The translations under genes and the position numbers were made by a program. The notes beneath the pieces are model-generated. The model had not been told where the DNA came from, made no database searches, and was given only the letters and a program-made list of their open reading frames with translations. Shown here one piece after another: positions 9,240 through 53,886 of a stretch of 64,000 nt of DNA (the stretch's first letter is position 1; each line of letters starts with the position of its first letter). The stretch lies in IMG/VR virus record IMGVR_UViG_3300028392_000030, positions 96,001 to 160,000 of that record. One strand, 5' to 3'. The DNA comes from a virus.

Positions 9240-10332
9240 ATTCGTGATTTCGTAAAATGTTGTCAATGGCAAAAGATTTAAACGGCAATAATTTAAATAA
9301 TTTTTCGCCTCGTAAATTATCCAACAGCAATATGTGTGCAATGGTCTGTTGAAACAAAACTTGATTAATATTGTTGCTAATCAAATTTCTGATGTGCAAT
9401 ATTGTATTATTGTCAATGTTATGATTGTGTTCAAGTTGATCAACTTTATCCAAGGCCAATGATTTCAATGATTCAGGTATTACATCCAACGCCAGATAAT
9501 CTGGCCCTGTCAGTATAATCAAATTGATAGAGATATTATTTAATTTGGCATAATCGTACAAGTCGTTGATAAACCAAATATTTAAAATACTTAATACCGG
9601 ACTGAGAGTAACGTTAATATTTGAGTCGTGTGTGATTGTCAATAACTTTTGTAAATTTGAGTTTATTTTCTCCCAATTGGTTCCAGATCGAATATATTCC
9701 AATGGCTCGCCAACAGCATCTATACTGCACTGTATATTAACTTGTTTAAATTTTTTCCAGAGATCAATGATATTTTTATCTTTATATTTTATTGTAGTTA
9801 GATTGGTGTTATACATTAGTTCTATCTTGCTGGCTTGTCCGCTGTCAACCAGTTCGTCGAGCAATGCCCAGTGTTCGCTATTGATCAATGGTTCGCCGCC
9901 GGTAAAATACATCCATTGCAAGGAGCCAGTGAATAGTATGTCTTTGTAATTGGCCAGATCTTGATTTTCTATAATAGGAAATCTACCAAGCTCTTCAGCC
10001 CATTGGCTGCTAAAATGTGGCCCGCAATACCTACATTTTAAATTGCAAAGATTGGTATTCCTAATGTCAACAAATTGTAAGCCCGGAGCTGCTGTTACTT
10101 TTTTATTAAATCCATTTCTATAGCTGGATAATCCATGGTATTCTGCCACTGCACATTTATTACACGGGTGGTCTGGTGGGCAGTCTTGAGTTTTTAAATC
10201 TACGAATCTGTTTGGATTTGATAATTCAGATATGGGCTTGGAGTAACTGCTGTCAATTTGACAACAAGGACCAATTTTCCCATTGGGGAAAACGGTTACT
10301 CCGTGATCAATTGCCGCACAAGTCCAGGTCAC
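9232..10332 (-). CDS. Radical SAM protein with N-terminal auxiliary-cluster domain (AT-rich)
   Basis: CNLKCRYC, FTGGEP, YNTN; TC...GPCC...CNKC. Confidence 0.88.
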   Translation of the reverse strand: MTWTCAAIDHGVTVFPNGKIGPCCQIDSSYSKPISELSNPNRFVDLKTQDCPPDHPCNKCAVAEYHGLSSYRNGFNKKVTAAPGLQFVDIRNTNLCNLKCRYCGPHFSSQWAEELGRFPIIENQDLANYKDILFTGSLQWMYFTGGEPLINSEHWALLDELVDSGQASKIELMYNTNLTTIKYKDKNIIDLWKKFKQVNIQCSIDAVGEPLEYIRSGTNWEKINSNLQKLLTITHDSNINVTLSPVLSILNIWFINDLYDYAKLNNISINLIILTGPDYLALDVIPESLKSLALDKVDQLEHNHNIDNNTILHIRNLISNNINQVLFQQTIAHILLLDNLRGEKLFKLLPFKSFAIDNILRNHEYE

Positions 10333-49304: not shown

Positions 49305-51068
49305 ATGATCCATATAAAAAATTTAACTGTTAAGAACTTCATGAGTGTTGGTAACAGCACTCAGGCCATTGATTTTGATCGCAAAGACCTTACGTTAGTG
49401 TTAGGTGAGAATTTGGATCTTGGCGGAGATGGTTCAAGAAACGGAACCGGCAAAACTACTATCATTAATGCTCTAAGCTATGCTCTATATGGCACAGCAC
49501 TCAGCAACATCCGCAAGGATAATCTAGTAAACAAGACCAATGGCAAGAACATGTTGGTCAGTCTTGATTTTGGTGTGGGTGGTAAGAATTACAAAATTGA
49601 ACGTGGGCGTAAACCAAATGTGTTAAGATTTTTTGTCAACAATGAAGAACAGGCCATCACCGACAACGCTCAAGGTGATTCGAGAGAAACCCAAGAAAAT
49701 ATCGAACAGTTGTTAGGACTCAGTCACGATATGTTTCGACACATCTTGGCCTTAAACACTTACACTGAACCATTCCTAAGTTTAAAGGCCAATGATCAAC
49801 GCACAATTATCGAACAGTTATTGGGTATTACACAACTAAGTGAACGTGCTGACCGTATCAAAGAACTTAACAAACAGACCAAAGATTCTATACAGCAAGA
49901 AGAATTTCGCATTCGTGCAGAACAAGAAGCAAATAAACGTATTGAAGAACAAATAGAAAGTCTACGACGTAGACAAACATTGTGGACAACTAAACATGGC
50001 GAAGATATCAAGGAACTTGAGAAAGCCCTTAAGGCGTTACAGAATATTCAGATTGAAGTGGAGATCCAAGCGCACAAAGATCACAAAGAATGGGATCAAC
50101 GGCGAAAGGATATCAATGAACTATCAACTCAGATCTCCCGTGTCAAAATGGACATCAGTAGGGATGAAAAGCTGGCGGCCAAATTATCAAAAGAAATCGA
50201 GACTCTTAAAAATCACGAGTGTCATACGTGCGGACAGGCCTTCCACGACACTAAGCACCAACAAGTTTTAGAAGGCAAGCATACGGAATTGGCTATGGCT
50301 CAACAGAGTGGCACAGAATTTAACACCCTCTTGTCAGAATTAGAGACTGCCCACACCACCTTGGGTCTGCTAGGCAGACCACCCACAATGTTCTATGACA
50401 AGGAGTCCGATGCTATTCAACATCAAGCCACTGTGGCCAACTTAGAACAACAGATTGCCACAAAGGCTGTTGAAACAGATCCTTATGCAGAACAAATTAC
50501 AGAAATGCAACAGCAGGCCTTGAAAGAAATCACTTACGATACACTGAATGAACTTACTCGATTGCAAGAACATCAAGACTTCTTGCTCAAACTGTTGACC
50601 AGTAAAGATTCATTTATTCGTAAAAAAATCATTGAACAGAATCTCAGCTATCTAAATGCTAGACTCACACACTACTTGGATCGTGTGGGTTTACCGCATA
50701 CAGTGGTATTCCAAAATGATTTAACTGTCAGCATCGAAGAATTAGGTCGTGAACTAGACTTTGATAATTTGAGCCGTGGCGAACGCAATCGATTAATCCT
50801 GAGCATGAGTTGGGCATTCCGAGATGTGTTTGAAAGTTTATATCAACCTATTAATCTGTTGTTCATAGACGAAATGATTGACAATGGGCTTGATACTGCA
50901 GGTGTAGAAAATGCCCTGGCATTATTAAAACAAATGAGCCGAGAGCGACACAAATCAATTTGGTTAGTAAGTCACCGAGATGAGTTGTCTGGAAGAGTTG
51001 AAAATATTCTTAAGGTTGTCAAAGAAGGTGGCTTTACCAGTTACAACACAGATGTAGAAATAGCATGA
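49305..51068 (+). CDS. gp46: Recombination ATPase subunit (Rad50/SbcC-like)
   Basis: KNFMSVGN, Walker A NGTGKT, zinc hook CHTC, LSRGERNR signature, FIDEMIDNGLD, SH. Confidence 0.95.
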   Translation: MIHIKNLTVKNFMSVGNSTQAIDFDRKDLTLVLGENLDLGGDGSRNGTGKTTIINALSYALYGTALSNIRKDNLVNKTNGKNMLVSLDFGVGGKNYKIERGRKPNVLRFFVNNEEQAITDNAQGDSRETQENIEQLLGLSHDMFRHILALNTYTEPFLSLKANDQRTIIEQLLGITQLSERADRIKELNKQTKDSIQQEEFRIRAEQEANKRIEEQIESLRRRQTLWTTKHGEDIKELEKALKALQNIQIEVEIQAHKDHKEWDQRRKDINELSTQISRVKMDISRDEKLAAKLSKEIETLKNHECHTCGQAFHDTKHQQVLEGKHTELAMAQQSGTEFNTLLSELETAHTTLGLLGRPPTMFYDKESDAIQHQATVANLEQQIATKAVETDPYAEQITEMQQQALKEITYDTLNELTRLQEHQDFLLKLLTSKDSFIRKKIIEQNLSYLNARLTHYLDRVGLPHTVVFQNDLTVSIEELGRELDFDNLSRGERNRLILSMSWAFRDVFESLYQPINLLFIDEMIDNGLDTAGVENALALLKQMSRERHKSIWLVSHRDELSGRVENILKVVKEGGFTSYNTDVEIA

Positions 51069-51499
51069 CAGCGACCATTGTTAAAGATATAAACTTTAAT
51101 CAATGTCAAAGTTTATATCTTTATAAACTAAAAGACAAAAATAATCTGCCGCATTATAAACAATTTGTTGACTCAACGTCTGATGGCCAAACTGATGCAT
51201 TAATTATTAATCATCAATATTATTCATTAGAAGAATTACGCAAAAAAATAATTGAGCGTAGTCACGGTGTCTCGGATTATTTTTACCTAGCTGTAAACAA
51301 ATTTTGCATTTATTCTACAGTAGACTCTGAGCCTACTGCAAACAATTCAGAATGGGATTCTCTATTGGTTCAATATTGCCATTCTGCAATCAATGATAAA
51401 TTTGACTTAGTCGGTTCAGTTGTCCGTCCAGACGATGTTGGACAGCTGGGAAATTTTGTTCATCCGGTTACCACAATGATTTTTAAACGTTATGGATAA
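51065..51499 (+). CDS. Hypothetical protein
   Basis: ORF track; ATGA coupling to gp46. Confidence 0.55.
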   Translation: MTATIVKDINFNQCQSLYLYKLKDKNNLPHYKQFVDSTSDGQTDALIINHQYYSLEELRKKIIERSHGVSDYFYLAVNKFCIYSTVDSEPTANNSEWDSLLVQYCHSAINDKFDLVGSVVRPDDVGQLGNFVHPVTTMIFKRYG

Positions 51500-51986
51500 A
51501 GAAAAAATACGACTGTTAAAAAGTCATTACATGGCCAGATGGACTGTGATGAGACATAATCAAAAGCGTCTAGACAAAATACTGGCACTAGAAGATCAGA
51601 TAGTTTTAAAAAATTTAATGCCAGGAACTACTCTTTGCTACAACTGTCTTGGGGAAATTTACACTGGAATGATTGACATGACTCCTAGTGAAAAATATCA
51701 AAATTTAGTATTGATCAACAACCGAGAGTTCAAGTATAAAACAGTTGATCAAATCAATGAGTGGGTGCAAGAACTTGCTGAACAACATTTGCAACCTGGC
51801 GGAAGGATCATAGTGAGTGTATCTCACCGGTTTTTGATTTATAATCGAGTTGAAATATCTGTTAACACGTTGGTTTCACGTTGGTTTTCTAATGTTAACA
51901 ATTTCACCGTGATAAAATCTTTAAACTTATTAAATAAAGCTAACCAAGGGTACGGTGACTACTTTTTCTGGGTAAACTACAAATGA
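51492..51986 (+). CDS. Hypothetical protein, possibly degenerate class I methyltransferase fold
   Basis: HLQPGGRIIV resembles the post-motif II L(K)PGG pattern; no clear GxGxG. Confidence 0.4.
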   Translation: MDKEKIRLLKSHYMARWTVMRHNQKRLDKILALEDQIVLKNLMPGTTLCYNCLGEIYTGMIDMTPSEKYQNLVLINNREFKYKTVDQINEWVQELAEQHLQPGGRIIVSVSHRFLIYNRVEISVNTLVSRWFSNVNNFTVIKSLNLLNKANQGYGDYFFWVNYK

Positions 51987-52002
51987 TGATAACTACTAGT
52001 CC

Positions 52003-52431
52003 ATGGTATGGCTGTACGAAAACGCTCAAATTGAAACATTGCCCAAAGACTGTGTTGGGTTTGTCTATTTGATTACAAATAACATAACCGGCAGGAAATA
52101 TATTGGGAAAAAATTAGCAAAATTTAGCAAAACAACATATCGAGTAATAAAATTAAAGAACGGCAACAAAAAGAAAAAACGTATCAGAAGCAAAATAGAC
52201 TCCGACTGGCAGCTATACTATGGAAGTAACGATCAACTTAACAAAGACCTTGAGGCGCTGGGCGCTGCCAACTTCACAAGAGAAATATTATTTTATTGCA
52301 AATCAAAAGCAGAATGCAGTTATATAGAAGCTAGAGAACAATTCAATCATAGAGTATTAGAATCAGACGACTACTACAACGGACAAATAGTTTGCCGAAT
52401 ACATGGTAGTCACATAAAAAACAAAATTTAA
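52003..52431 (+). CDS. Stand-alone GIY-YIG endonuclease (EndoII/Seg-like catalytic domain only)
   Basis: GFVYLITN.ITGRKYIGKK, YYGS, FTREIL, YIEA, YYNG. Confidence 0.85.
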   Translation: MVWLYENAQIETLPKDCVGFVYLITNNITGRKYIGKKLAKFSKTTYRVIKLKNGNKKKKRIRSKIDSDWQLYYGSNDQLNKDLEALGAANFTREILFYCKSKAECSYIEAREQFNHRVLESDDYYNGQIVCRIHGSHIKNKI

Positions 52432-52440
52432 AACTTAGAT

Positions 52441-52800
52441 AGGCAACTCATAGACACTGTGCTAGTCGCGGACTAGCCCCATTGAGGAACGGTGAGATAC
52501 CCGGTCCGGATTCTTGGGCGTCAAAGGCAATTGCTAACTTAAGGCAACAAATGGTTTGGGCTCCGTTGAAAAAGATACGACCCATGCTTATAGGACTTGG
52601 ATCTAATATCGGGTTACTAGGGTTCCGTTGATATGTGAAGCTTGAGTAGGGGGTACCGGTCAACCGCCTCCGCGTAGGAAACTACAATCTCATTACTATT
52701 AGATGACTGCTGTCACTCGGATAATGGCAAAGTCGATTCACCGTGACACGGTGAATCATGACCACAGTATCTGGATAATAGCTAAAACAATAATTGAAAC
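52441..52800 (+). ncRNA. Candidate large structured ncRNA (family unknown)
   Basis: No coherent CDS; terminal stem ACTGTG/CACAGT; nested long-range helices GAGG/CCTC, CGGT/ACCG, TACCC/GGGTA, CGGATTCT/AGGGTTCCG; hairpins incl. GTAG-GAAA-CTAC and a 10-bp stem; strand inferred from the GNRA loop and gene context. Confidence 0.6.
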
Positions 52801-52805
52801 AATAG

Positions 52806-52849
52806 GTTAATGAGCGATAGCGAAATTAACAGATCTCTAATAGAGATCT
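52806..52849. terminator. Hairpin plus 19-bp palindrome between convergent units
   Basis: GTTAAT/ATTAAC stem and AGATCTCTA-A-TAGAGATCT (52831-52849) abutting the stop of the - strand gene. Confidence 0.5.
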
Positions 52850-53886
52850 TAATATATAGATTCAACTTGATGAATGTTTGGTTCTAATAAAAGATGTAAA
52901 TTTTTGGTATTGTTAGGAAATTTAACCAATTGCCAAGTTTTTAAGTTTAAGTTGTGTTGATAAATCAAACAATGCTGTATCACGATTTCTTGTTCAAATG
53001 TTAAGTCGACGAGCTCATAATCCCAACCATTGACAATCGATTCAATCATGTGTGGTAATACATGACAAAAATCTAAATGATTGAATTGTGTATTCTGCCA
53101 TTTAGCATATATTGATTTCCACAGGTGTAGTCTGTCTGGGTCAATTTGTAAACCTACATGGGCTAAAATTTTATGCATGTATTGTTCGCCAAGTGTCCAG
53201 AACGATCTAGAATCAATCCACAGATGTGACAAACTAAAATCCAACGGCACACGACTTCGATGAAAAGGTCTGACATTCAGTGCTCGTCGTTCTCTTATGT
53301 CCCAAACGTCTGTTAAATTACTGTAAGCAGCAATGGCCTCATTGAAGAAGTATTCTTCAAATTCAGTGGCCAATTCAGATTGACAACCAGATTGGTTGTT
53401 GTCAAATAAAAAAGTACCTCGTCGACGAAAATTGGTATGATACAAATCAATCTCGGGACTTGAATCTACATAAATTATTTTTGTGTTGCGTTGGGCACAT
53501 AATTTAAAAAGATCAGCATAATCTTTTTGTTGATACTCGAGTATTTGGTTGTTTATGTCAGGATTACTGTTATTTTTATCGAGTATTAAATTTAATTTTT
53601 TAGCAGTTTGGTCGAATCTCAACAGTTGTGGATAAACAGTAAACACACCGGTGTTTTGATGATCAAATTGATCTAAAGTTTCATTTGTTTCAGTGTAGCC
53701 AGCTGGATGATTTTTTTTATGATTATGTGCATTGTTTTGATCAAGCGGATTACTGGTCAACTCTATCCATTGATTGCTGCTAATATTAAAAAACCGTGTC
53801 TGCCCACTTAAAAAGTGTATACTCCAATCGATAAATGTGCAACCCAATGGTTCTTGACTGGTCACACATATTTTTGTATGCGACAT
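52849..53886 (-). CDS. Hypothetical protein, possible divergent sulfotransferase/P-loop fold
   Basis: ORF track; start revised to MSHTK; ICVTS.EPLGCTF loop. Confidence 0.55.
   Translation of the reverse strand: MSHTKICVTSQEPLGCTFIDWSIHFLSGQTRFFNISSNQWIELTSNPLDQNNAHNHKKNHPAGYTETNETLDQFDHQNTGVFTVYPQLLRFDQTAKKLNLILDKNNSNPDINNQILEYQQKDYADLFKLCAQRNTKIIYVDSSPEIDLYHTNFRRRGTFLFDNNQSGCQSELATEFEEYFFNEAIAAYSNLTDVWDIRERRALNVRPFHRSRVPLDFSLSHLWIDSRSFWTLGEQYMHKILAHVGLQIDPDRLHLWKSIYAKWQNTQFNHLDFCHVLPHMIESIVNGWDYELVDLTFEQEIVIQHCLIYQHNLNLKTWQLVKFPNNTKNLHLLLEPNIHQVESIY

What the first reader, a model, noticed from the sequence alone, without database searches (positions are those of the whole stretch)
52003..52849. 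Minimal GIY-YIG nuclease followed by an ornate ~320-400-nt structured RNA: candidate RNA-associated nuclease system
Seen: this is by far the longest ORF-free gap in the window (52432-52848), and it is GC-richer than its flanks. It can fold as one closed domain. The terminal stem is 52452-52461 with 52763-52772. A 7-bp hairpin sits at 52461-52477. Nested long-range helices are GAGG 52484/CCTC 52667, CGGT 52490/ACCG 52663, TACCC 52498/GGGTA 52651 and CGGATTCT 52507/AGGGTTCCG 52619. These enclose TTGC/GCAA and TGGG/CCCA hairpins. Further elements are a GAAA tetraloop hairpin (52674-52685), a TGAC/GTCA hairpin, a 10-bp hairpin (52735-52757) flanked by two GGATAAT copies, an A-rich 3' tail and a palindromic terminator. 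The upstream 142-aa nuclease has only the catalytic domain, with no NUMOD/HTH specificity module. Known: HNH and RuvC nucleases pair with adjacent structured RNAs (HEARO, OMEGA); I know no GIY-YIG equivalent. Inference: the RNA is a scaffold, guide or inhibitor for the nuclease, or an independent large phage ncRNA, ribozyme or origin element.
Basis: partly seen in the sequence, partly recalled or inferred. Interest (0 to 1): 0.85.

Follow-up and report, generated by a model that had tools for sequence, protein, structure and literature searches.

The report
Twin-box structured RNA beside nuclease gene
The gene-free stretch after the small GIY-YIG nuclease gene encodes a real, roughly 400-base knotted RNA that is common in uncultured T4-like water phages and also occurs in bacterial genomic islands; its job is unknown, it carries the same 7-letter word twice, and nothing shows that it guides the nuclease.

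Summary
Window 52437-52848 (+) is a genuine structured RNA gene. It is conserved at 74-96% nt in about 190 viral contigs. In the core, 95.6% of cells are paired, 17 pairs carry compensatory changes, and 0/500 shuffles reach that. It has one strongly covarying pseudoknot and an invariant roughly 55-nt core.

Two 7-nt words (52719-25 and 52773-79) are identical in 117/120 distinct sequences. They changed at least 31 times, and no complementary partner was found.

Rfam has no match for this window. Sister RNAs in marine phages and in Polynucleobacter-like bacteria have Rfam RF01718 (Polynucleobacter-1) as their 5' domain, plus a 3' twin-box domain homologous to this one.

The GIY-YIG link looks like conserved gene order:
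- The whole neighbourhood is syntenic.
- Other genes are inserted between the nuclease gene and the RNA in about 15% of loci.
- Melnitz-type phages keep the nuclease without the RNA.
- Bacterial copies lack the nuclease.

The function is unknown. This scan had already found the same RNA family on other genomes. I rate it a new variant of a partly catalogued orphan RNA, of moderately high interest.

The parts
52003..52431 (+). 142-aa GIY-YIG (SegE-type) nuclease gene, catalytic domain only; a conserved upstream neighbour of the RNA
   Evidence: Pfam PF19835, E 4e-32, covering model positions 1-123 of 123. There are 571 or more relatives in viral contigs, the best 80 at 75-93% aa identity. Orthologues at 36-46% identity occur in cultured Kyanoviridae-like phages.
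52437..52848 (+). Twin-box structured RNA gene, including its terminator. The 5' edge is the conserved TAGAYAGGCAAC motif, which abuts the stop codon of whichever gene lies upstream.
   Evidence: blastn and nhmmer show conservation in about 190 loci. RNAalifold predicts 77 pairs, 31 of them with compensatory changes. The 5' motif stays with the RNA when other genes are inserted upstream.
52453..52522 (+). 5' subdomain. Helix 52453-55/52520-22 encloses hairpin H1 (52461-67/52471-77). It also encloses H2 (52478-81/52515-18), which in turn encloses hairpin H3 (52486-88 and 52490-92 with 52501-03 and 52505-07).
   Evidence: Compensatory pairs include 52479:52517 (CG 95, GC 13, GU 10) and 52490:52503 (CG 97, UA 14, AU 8), plus GAC/GTC changing to CAC/GTG.
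52531..52547 (+). Hairpin H4 with the invariant loop AACUUAA
   Evidence: Pair 52531:52547 varies as UA 82, CG 15. The loop is invariant in 48 sequences.
52557..52584 (+). Hairpin H5 (52557-60/52581-84 and 52564-65/52578-79) with the A-rich loop UGAAAAAGAUA
   Evidence: Pairs 52557:52584 (UA 68, GC 39, CG 7, AU 3), 52559:52582 (GC 95, AU 24) and 52564:52579 (UA 95, CG 25).
52586..52623 (+). Hairpin H6. Its 8-nt loop (52601-52608) is the 5' strand of the pseudoknot.
   Evidence: Helix 1: 3 of its 14 pairs change on both sides. I mistyped one pair of this helix (alignment column 6 with 35, where 7 with 35, U-A, was meant). That typo lowers the helix's paired-cell figure to 92.8% and slightly lowers the overall figure.
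52624..52642 (+). Near-invariant single-stranded joiner UCCGUUGAUAUGUGAAGCU. Together with H9 it forms the roughly 55-nt core.
   Evidence: Invariant or at least 95% conserved across 120 distinct sequences.
52643..52692 (+). Three-way junction. H8 (52643-46/52689-92) encloses H9 (52649-53 and 52657-59 with 52664-66 and 52667-71; UCAA loop, UAC bulge) and the GNRA hairpin H10 (52674-77/52682-85).
   Evidence: pair 59:110 is AU 47 / UA 45, pair 65:87 is GC 64 / AU 29, and all 4 pairs of H10 are compensatory. This is the part of model R1 that scores on phage 121Q.
52697..52704 (+). 3' strand of the pseudoknot; pairs with loop 52601-52608
   Evidence: Seven of 8 pairs change on both sides and 92% of cells are paired (helix 2). 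MI pair 52603:52702 is UA 65 / CG 42. A coupled +1 insertion is present on both strands in the window and in L197.
52716..52726 (+). Box 1: CUC + the 7-nt word GGAUAAU (52719-52725) + G, displayed in the loop of a variable hairpin (H11)
   Evidence: The closing stems covary (CTAC/GTAG, TGC/GCA, TCAC/GTGA). The word is identical to box 2 in 117 of 120 sequences.
52737..52755 (+). Hairpin H12 between the two boxes. The 8-bp stem is almost invariant in this clade and is replaced by covarying sequence in the sister subtypes.
   Evidence: 98-100% of cells paired across the 8 pairs 52737-44/52748-55, two of them compensatory. The RF01718-type relatives have GAGCCCC...GGGCUC in its place.
52770..52780 (+). 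Box 2: UCU + the same 7-nt word GGAUAAU (52773-52779), 54 nt after box 1
   Evidence: MI(52719,52773) = 1.0 bit and MI(52723,52777) = 1.08 bit, with 99-100% identical letters.
52806..52830 (+). Hairpin H13 with the conserved inner motif UGAGC-GNNA-GCGAAA (tandem G.A type)
   Evidence: Strongest covariation in the RNA: 52809:52827 shows GC 53, UA 37, AU 19, CG 5. The motif is also present in the bacterial copies.
52832..52848 (.). Palindromic hairpin (7 bp, loop AAU); a likely bidirectional terminator between the convergent + and - strand units
   Evidence: Compensatory pairs 52834-37 with 52843-46. Scored as a terminator-like site for the - strand. The convergent 352-aa gene ends at 52849.

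Best explanation
Window 52437-52848 (+) is a gene for a stand-alone, trans-acting structured RNA of about 400 nt. I call it the 'twin-box RNA'.

Shown:
- It is an evolutionarily constrained RNA fold. It has a 5' subdomain of nested hairpins, an H-type pseudoknot, an invariant single-stranded joiner, a three-way junction, a long hairpin flanked by two copies of one 7-nt word, a tandem-GA hairpin and a terminator.
- It belongs to a modular family carried by aquatic T4-like phages and by bacterial genomic islands. One sister subtype has the Rfam motif Polynucleobacter-1 (RF01718) as its 5' domain.

Inferred:
- It is made as the last element of the rightward (gp47-gp46-...-GIY-YIG) transcription unit. 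No conserved promoter of its own was seen. It ends at the bidirectional terminator.
- It then works independently of the GIY-YIG protein, which is a syntenic neighbour rather than a partner.
- The invariant core docks the RNA onto a highly conserved cellular or phage machine.
- The two boxes, exposed on either side of hairpin H12, are read against each other. The constraint is between the two boxes directly, or through a generic adaptor that can match any sequence. It is not with a fixed third sequence.

Most likely role (low confidence): an RNA used in phage-host or mobile-element conflict, acting as a decoy or scaffold for a nucleic-acid enzyme.
For: Real RNA:
- 74-96% nt conservation in about 190 viral loci.
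- 31 of 77 RNAalifold pairs are compensatory.
- In the core alignment 95.6% of cells are paired, against 38-50% when partners are slid. Seventeen pairs change on both sides and 0/500 shuffles reach that.
- The pseudoknot has 7 of 8 compensatory pairs and a coupled indel.
- There is no 3-nt periodicity and no conserved ORF.

Independent of GIY-YIG:
- The flanks are syntenic.
- Genes of five other families are inserted between GIY-YIG and the RNA, each abutting the RNA's 5' motif.
- GIY-YIG orthologues without any such RNA occur in Melnitz, phiN3, S-SRM01 and ACG-2014d. They also occur in the Melnitz-closest contigs.
- Bacterial twin-box RNAs show no GIY-YIG in the flanks held (1.2-1.5 kb on each side in three of four loci). 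Two of them, in G052 and G094, sit in integrase or defence-type islands.

Family link:
- True RF01718 hits (63-108 bits) lie directly after GIY-YIG in L429, L431 and L448. Each is followed by a 3' domain homologous to window 52640-52830.

Two-body constraint on the boxes:
- The words are identical in 117 of 120 sequences across 11 different words, with at least 31 changes.
- MI is 1.0 bit between the boxes and at most 0.22 with any other column.
- No complementary or co-varying site was found within 4 kb on either side.
- None was found in the alignable parts of six whole phage records.
Against: - There is no transcript evidence, so strand, ends and abundance are inferred from covariation only.
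- No RNA-only locus was found among close relatives. Every phage locus with room had GIY-YIG within 2 kb upstream, so a functional tie inside phages cannot be excluded.
- The conflict or decoy role rests only on genomic company: two of the four bacterial loci were examined, and both lie in islands.
- A host-encoded partner for the boxes could not be tested.
- The 121Q relative is a weak match (22.7 bits, E 0.009).
Confidence: 0.62

Rival explanations
1. RNA partner of the GIY-YIG nuclease. The RNA is a scaffold, guide, inhibitor or antitoxin-like regulator of the 142-aa catalytic-domain-only protein, supplying the specificity module that the protein lacks.
For: - Every locus of this clade with enough sequence has the two on the same strand, usually with zero spacing.
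- The same pairing recurs in marine relatives with a different 5' RNA domain.
- The protein has no DNA-binding extension.
Against: - The same protein family is kept without the RNA in cultured phages and in Melnitz-like contigs.
- The RNA family exists without the protein in bacteria.
- Unrelated genes are inserted between the two in about 15% of loci.
- The neighbourhood as a whole is syntenic.
- There is no long variable guide segment. The 7-nt words match no co-varying target.
Confidence: 0.12
2. Copy-choice template. A polymerase copies the segment between the boxes. The nascent strand, complementary to one box, re-anneals on the other identical box, so the roughly 54-nt unit is copied repeatedly or a jump is made. 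This works like the repeat-mediated realignment seen in telomerase RNA, DRT2 ncRNA or coronavirus TRS sites.
For: - It is the simplest mechanism that demands identity, not complementarity, of two direct words while leaving their sequence free. That is exactly the pattern seen.
- The boxes flank one strongly conserved hairpin.
- No third partner was found.
- Bacterial copies lie in defence or mobile islands.
Against: - No reverse transcriptase was found in G000, or in the complete 347-kb relative G154, and none turned up among the neighbouring genes I scanned against Pfam in the two bacterial islands.
- The unit length varies (50-67 nt) and is not held to multiples of three.
- No product has been observed.
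- It is argued only by analogy.
Confidence: 0.1
3. Cis-acting 3' element of the upstream operon. An elaborate 3' UTR that stabilises the mRNA, blocks 3' exonucleases or insulates the convergent transcription units.
For: - It always lies at the 3' end of a + strand gene, directly after the stop codon, whatever that gene is.
- It is followed by a bidirectional terminator.
- No own promoter is conserved.
Against: - About 400 nt with a pseudoknot, a 55-nt invariant core and matched twin words far exceeds what 3' protection needs.
- The bacterial copies stand apart from any upstream co-oriented gene and are divergent from DUF6641.
- The candidate 121Q relative has its own extended -10 promoter after a terminator.
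Confidence: 0.08
4. A ribozyme or degenerate self-splicing intron (group I-like) associated with a homing endonuclease, or a DNA-level element (origin or iterons) rather than an RNA.
For: - GIY-YIG genes often ride in group I introns.
- The RNA has a pseudoknot, a GNRA loop and an invariant core, as catalytic RNAs do.
- The direct repeats could be iterons.
Against: - No Rfam intron, RNase P, tmRNA or small-ribozyme model matches even at E <= 10.
- There are no flanking exons. The upstream genes vary and the downstream gene is convergent.
- The order of helices does not fit P3-P9.
- The compensatory changes are strand-specific Watson-Crick and G-U changes typical of RNA, including G-U to A-U.
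- The twin word is not enriched elsewhere in the genome.
Confidence: 0.05

Closest known systems
Polynucleobacter-1 RNA motif (Rfam RF01718; Weinberg et al. 2010, Genome Biol 11:R31, PMC2864571)
   Same: - RF01718 is the 5' domain of sister RNAs that occupy the same niche, directly after the same GIY-YIG family, in marine phage contigs L429, L431 and L448.
- Those sister RNAs continue into a 3' domain homologous to window 52640-52830: the H9-like helix, box 1 hairpin, H12, box 2 and H13.
- The bacterial RF01718 loci also carry the twin boxes and the H13 motif.
- The function is unknown in both. The only paper in the library that mentions the motif is the 2010 survey.
   Different: - The RF01718 model (141 nt) does not match this window, its genome or 28 related loci at E <= 10.
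- My core model R1 does not match the bacterial RF01718 loci.
- The 5' half here (52437-52640) has a different architecture.
- Rfam does not describe the 3' twin-box domain, the pseudoknot or the full length of about 400 nt.
Large 'ornate' orphan RNAs of bacteria and phages (GOLLD RF01998, ROOL RF03087, OLE, raiA)
   Same: These are large, intricately folded, strongly conserved non-coding RNAs of unknown biochemical function. They are often carried by phages or mobile elements and were found by comparative genomics.
   Different: There is no sequence or structure match to any of them. This RNA is smaller than GOLLD and ROOL. None of those is known to carry a pair of co-varying identical words (from my own knowledge).
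HEARO/OMEGA RNAs of IscB and TnpB
   Same: A structured RNA of a few hundred nucleotides is encoded next to a small nuclease gene in mobile DNA.
   Different: - Those RNAs carry a long, freely variable guide matching DNA targets, and their nuclease is never found without them (from my own knowledge).
- Here the only variable element is a duplicated 7-mer with no target.
- Here the nuclease and the RNA each occur alone.
RNAs whose function needs two identical direct words (telomerase RNA template ends, DRT2 ncRNA repeat, coronavirus leader and body TRS)
   Same: Two short direct repeats must stay identical, while their sequence is free to drift between lineages. In those systems a nascent complementary strand must re-anneal on the second copy (from my own knowledge). 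The statistical signature seen here is of that kind.
   Different: - No polymerase partner is known. No reverse transcriptase was found in the phage genomes searched.
- No product has been seen.
- There is no sequence or structural homology.

Membership tests
Rfam RF01718 Polynucleobacter-1 | Infernal score at or above the 37-bit gathering cut-off of the 141-nt covariance model | tested here: not met
   There is no hit at E <= 10 in window 51400-53200, in the whole 197-kb record or in 10 related loci, and no hit at the gathering score in 18 further related loci. Positive controls scored 63-108 bits in L429, L431, L448 and L336-338.
Rfam RF01718 Polynucleobacter-1 | Being part of the same larger RNA (shared downstream domain and genomic niche) | tested here: met
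   RF01718-bearing RNAs after GIY-YIG genes match positions 220-401 of my full-length profile by nhmmer (E 6e-13 to 2e-11). They align with window 52640-52830, including both boxes. The bacterial RF01718 loci carry ACUC-word and AUCU-word pairs 53-59 nt apart.
Twin-box RNA (uncatalogued family named in earlier notes of this scan) | Two copies of one 7-nt word, prefixed CUC and UCU, flanking a conserved hairpin, identical within each sequence but varying between sequences | tested here: met
   117 of 120 sequences have identical words, across 11 different words and at least 31 changes. The same holds in 13 marine and 4 bacterial relatives.
Twin-box RNA (uncatalogued family named in earlier notes of this scan) | A pseudoknotted core supported by covariation | tested here: met
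   Loop 52601-08 pairs with 52697-704, with 7 of 8 pairs compensatory. I found one pseudoknot. Earlier notes mention up to three in relatives; I did not reproduce that here.
Group I intron (RF00028) | P3-P9 core with the P3/P7 pseudoknot, flanking exons and a covariance-model match | tested here: not met
   There is no Rfam hit at E <= 10. There is no split host gene: the upstream genes vary and the downstream gene is convergent.
OMEGA/HEARO-type guide RNA of a nuclease | A variable guide segment matching DNA targets, and obligate co-occurrence with the nuclease | tested here: not met
   - The only variable element is a 7-mer with no co-varying or enriched target.
- The nuclease occurs without the RNA.
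- The RNA occurs without the nuclease.
tmRNA / tRNA / RNase P RNA | Detection by ARAGORN or by the Rfam models | tested here: not met
   ARAGORN found 0 genes in the window. There are no Rfam hits.
GIY-YIG SegE-type endonuclease (Pfam PF19835), for the upstream ORF | A full-length match to the domain model above the cut-off | tested here: met
   111 bits against a 25-bit cut-off, covering model positions 1-123 of 123. Nuclease activity itself is not testable here.

The most novel reading that the evidence does not exclude
The twin boxes mark a copy-choice (realignment) site. A host or phage polymerase copies the roughly 54-nt unit between them, and its nascent strand jumps between the two identical words. 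That would make this widespread phage and island RNA a template that produces repeated complementary DNA or RNA during infection. It would be an RT-independent or host-RT-hijacking analogue of DRT2 or telomerase templating, used in phage-host conflict.
Probability: 0.1. Interest if true: 0.9.

Novelty: new variant of a known kind. Interest (0 to 1): 0.6.

Why it matters
This is one of the more common large structured RNAs of uncultured aquatic T4-like phages. Hundreds of contigs carry it, including a complete 347-kb jumbo genome. Only a 141-nt piece of a sister form is catalogued, and no function is known.

Its core is more conserved than the neighbouring proteins. That points to an interaction with a conserved machine.

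The strict identity of two freely drifting 7-nt words is a rare kind of constraint. It narrows the possible mechanisms and can be tested directly with single and double box mutants.

The presence of the RNA in bacterial integrase and defence islands suggests a role in conflicts between mobile elements.

There is no evidence for a GIY-YIG counterpart of the RNA-guided HNH or RuvC nucleases.

Tried and rejected
- **Rfam:** searched at gathering and at E <= 10 on the window and 28 relatives. No family matched.
- **tRNA and tmRNA:** none found.
- **Single-sequence folding:** not significant on either strand.
- **blastn of the RNA against cultured phages:** no match.
- **Genome contigs pattern scan:** my pattern was too loose. 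The 120 hits were chance, and none matched the RNA profile. This says nothing about bacteria.
- **First attempt to link RF01718:** it failed in both directions. It was resolved only when marine relatives with both domains turned up.
- **Search for a partner of the twin word:**
  - No exact complement within 4 kb on either side in 117 loci.
  - No site tracking the word in pairwise alignments of six phage genomes.
  - No genome-wide enrichment of the word.
  - No covarying column inside the RNA.
- **Translational bypass or mini-ORF reading of the words:** 112 of 120 words read as a sense codon followed by UAA or UGA. I rejected this because no conserved ORF or frame enters box 1, and the inter-box length is not a multiple of 3.
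- **CsrA-type GGA sites:** rejected, because half the words have AGA.
- **Reverse transcriptase in G000 and G154:** none.
- **DUF6641, the bacterial neighbour, in the phages:** none.
rejected on covariation.
- **Not used:** structure or complex prediction of the protein. It would not bear on the RNA question.
Full report
**What is at the coordinates**

The window is part of a 197-kb IMG/VR virus record of a T4-like phage. A gp46-like SbcC ATPase lies at 49305-51068. ORF 52003-52431 (+) encodes 142 aa that match Pfam SegE_GIY-YIG end to end (E 4e-32).

From its stop to the convergent 352-aa gene ending at 52849 there is no credible ORF. The stretch is 45% GC against 34.5% in both neighbouring genes. 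It holds no tRNA or tmRNA. It matches no Rfam family at gathering score or at E <= 10. On its own the sequence does not fold better than shuffles (z -1.5 on the + strand, -2.1 on the - strand). So the case for an RNA had to come from relatives.

**Conservation and linkage**

The GIY-YIG protein has 571 or more relatives in viral contigs, the best 80 at 75-93% identity. The gap sequence is conserved at 76-96% nt downstream of nearly all of them.

A scan seeded only on an invariant 19-mer of the gap returned 118 further loci. Every one with enough upstream sequence has the GIY-YIG gene on the same strand. It is usually abutting; in about 15% of loci it lies 0.8-2 kb away. With a profile search, the only GIY-YIG loci lacking the RNA are those with 387 nt or less of sequence downstream of the gene, too little to hold the whole RNA.

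**Structure**

RNAalifold on 48 sequences gave 77 pairs, 31 of them with compensatory changes. A 120-sequence alignment with mutual-information analysis and a curated 93-sequence core alignment define these elements, in window coordinates:
- Helix 52453-55/52520-22 encloses hairpin H1 (52461-77) and H2 (52478-81/52515-18), which contains H3.
- H4 lies at 52531-47 and H5 at 52557-84.
- H6 lies at 52586-623.
- An invariant joiner lies at 52624-42.
- A three-way junction consists of H8 (52643-46/52689-92), H9 and the GNRA hairpin H10.
- Hairpin H12 (52737-55), hairpin H13 (52806-30) and the terminator hairpin (52832-48) follow.

The 8-nt loop of H6 (52601-08) pairs with 52697-704, forming a pseudoknot. 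Seven of its 8 pairs change on both sides. The window shares with L197 a coupled one-base insertion on both strands.

On the named structure, 95.6% of cells are paired, against 38-50% when partners are slid. Seventeen pairs change on both sides, and 0/500 shuffles reach the observed values. One pair of H6 was mistyped in that call, which only lowers the figures.

The nested long-range helices are not. They join invariant bases, and wherever one side varies the long-range partner stays fixed while a local partner compensates. The proposed terminal stem is paired in only 58% of cells.

**The twin boxes**

Box 1 is CUC + GGAUAAU (52719-25), in the loop of a variable hairpin. Box 2 is UCU + GGAUAAU (52773-79). 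The two carry the same 7-mer in 117 of 120 distinct sequences, although 11 different words occur.

On a tree built from the rest of the RNA, the word changed at least 31 times. Position 1 (G/A) flipped at least 22 times, in both boxes together. Mutual information between the matching positions is 1.0-1.08 bit. It is at most 0.22 bit between 52719 and any other column, including those between the boxes. So this is not linkage.

I looked for a third party in four ways:
- There is no exact complement within 4 kb on either side in 117 loci.
- No site tracks the word or its complement in pairwise alignments of six phage records, which include a complete 346,856-bp genome. The only sites recovered across the comparisons were the boxes themselves, as positive controls, apart from one coincidental match in a single genome pair (G154 against G157) that did not recur in the other pairs.
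- The word is not enriched in the genome.
- No column inside the RNA covaries with it.

The constraint therefore looks two-body. G and A would both pair with a fixed U, so a fixed partner cannot explain the coupling. A co-varying partner would need three concerted changes, dozens of times over. This last step is inference.

Most words (112 of 120) read as a sense codon followed by UAA or UGA. But no conserved frame enters them, and the spacing is not a multiple of three. I record this as unexplained.

**Relation to known families**

Notes from earlier follow-ups in this scan named Rfam Polynucleobacter-1 (RF01718) as the closest known family. At first I could not reproduce that. RF01718 does not hit the window, its genome or 28 relatives. 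My core model R1 does not hit true RF01718 loci, which I fetched from Burkholderiales genomes (4 of the 151 searched had a match at E <= 0.001, 3 of them above Rfam's cut-off).

The link appeared when I queried viral contigs with the GIY-YIG of the cultured Methylophilales phage Melnitz. Three results matter:
- Contigs closest to Melnitz have no RNA after the gene (gaps of 0-190 nt).
- Among more distant contigs, 23 of about 51 have an RNA matching my profile by nhmmer (E from 0.005 down to 1e-29), starting at or within a few hundred nt of the GIY-YIG stop codon, and all 13 that I examined carry twin words.
- Three contigs (L429, L431, L448) have a bona fide RF01718 motif (63-108 bits) right after the stop codon. 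It is followed by a 3' domain that aligns with window 52640-52830: the H9-like helix, box 1, H12, box 2 and H13.

So RF01718 is the 5' domain of a sister subtype. The window has a different 5' domain joined to the same 3' twin-box domain.

The bacterial RF01718 loci also continue into a twin-box domain. Examples are ACUC-GGCGAAA and AUCU-GGCGAAA 57 nt apart, together with the H13 motif. They show no GIY-YIG in the flanks held (1.2-1.5 kb on each side in three of the four loci). In the two loci where I scanned the neighbouring ORFs against Pfam, a divergent DUF6641 gene lies next to the RNA. In G052 the RNA lies beside a tyrosine integrase and a Zorya-like set (EH_Signature, MotB-like, SNF2-Mrr). 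In G094 it lies beside SNF2, methylase and ResIII genes and DUF6876.

**Is the nuclease a partner?**

In favour is the universal linkage inside the phage clades. Against it:
- The whole neighbourhood is syntenic: gp46-like genes, then GIY-YIG, then the RNA, then convergent DUF6614-type late genes.
- Genes of five other families are inserted between the nuclease gene and the RNA. Each time, the RNA's 5' motif TAGAYAGGCAAC stays with the RNA, directly after the inserted gene's stop codon.
- Orthologous GIY-YIG genes (36-46% identity) in Melnitz, phiN3, S-SRM01 and ACG-2014d are followed by 29-148 nt only. Their whole genomes have no R1 match.
- The bacterial RNAs lack the nuclease.
- E. coli phage 121Q has no homologue of this GIY-YIG. 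It does have a weak R1 match to the three-way junction (22.7 bits, E 0.009). The match lies inside a 722-nt ORF-free gap after gene 167, downstream of a terminator and an extended -10 promoter.

I therefore read the pairing as conserved gene order. A residual 12% goes to a real partnership.

**How it most likely works**

Shown: a constrained, pseudoknotted, modular RNA with an invariant core and two matched words.

Inferred:
- It is transcribed as the last element of the rightward unit. No conserved promoter of its own was seen. It ends at the bidirectional terminator.
- The core binds a conserved machine.
- The boxes, held on either side of H12, are read against each other.

The class of mechanism that naturally demands identical direct words is realignment of a complementary copy (copy-choice). 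However, no reverse transcriptase is encoded in G000 or in the complete relative G154. I keep that as the novel case at about 10%.

The company the RNA keeps points loosely to a role in conflict between mobile elements and hosts: phages on one side, integrase and defence islands on the other.

**Verdict**

The RNA is real. The fold is partly different from the one proposed. The RNA-guided-nuclease idea is unsupported. The element is a new variant of a partly catalogued orphan RNA family that this scan had already met on other genomes. The twin-box constraint remains unexplained.

Noticed in passing
L334:1734-2455 (Escherichia phage 121Q NC_025447, 90233-90954) and NC_025447 193130-193233: A 722-nt ORF-free gap lies after the sigma-factor gene 167. 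It follows a terminator and has an extended -10 promoter (TGTGATATAAT). It contains a weak match (22.7 bits) to the three-way-junction core of model R1. A second, weaker match lies at 193 kb. This may be a cultured-phage relative of the RNA, without the GIY-YIG gene.
   Followed up: partly
L468 (G052:C4:62000-81999) and L469 (G094:C1:639000-658999): The bacterial RF01718 / twin-box RNAs sit in genomic islands. In G052 the neighbours are a tyrosine integrase, a divergent DUF6641 gene and a Zorya-like set (EH_Signature, MotB-like, SNF2-Mrr). In G094 they are SNF2, N6/N4 methylase and ResIII genes plus DUF6641 and DUF6876. DUF6641 is the repeated immediate neighbour and is absent from the phages searched.
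   Followed up: partly
window 52719-52725 and 52773-52779: In 112 of 120 relatives the twin word reads as a sense codon (GGA, AGA or ACA) followed by a stop codon (UAA or UGA). This recalls the take-off site of T4 gene 60 bypassing, but no conserved ORF leads into it.
   Followed up: partly
window 52441-52447, 52524-52529, 52541-52547; L422, L450 and L460 5' regions: The motif AGGCAA/AGGCAC recurs three times in the 5' half of this RNA. It recurs 3-5 times in tandem (AAGGCACA) in a third, marine type of 5' domain. This may be a repeated protein-binding site.
   Followed up: no
window 9342-9565 and 9950-10328: Two other ORF-poor stretches (224 and 379 nt) lie close together. The second is nearly as long as the RNA gap. 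I did not examine them.
   Followed up: no
cultured phage records, e.g. NC_062734.1 153089-153529 and NC_028945.1 165973-166389: Orthologues of this GIY-YIG protein are annotated 'NAD synthetase' in many cyanophage and Sinorhizobium phage records. This looks like a propagated mis-annotation of a SegE-type GIY-YIG domain protein.
   Followed up: no
L023, L047, L064, L026, L199 and others, between GIY-YIG and the RNA: The genes inserted between the nuclease gene and the RNA fall into five families (11, 13, 21, 33 and 47). Family 11 is the homologue of the window's convergent 352-aa gene, here on the + strand. Several of the families share a C-terminal ...HPG... motif. So this junction is a hotspot for gene insertion.
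   Followed up: no
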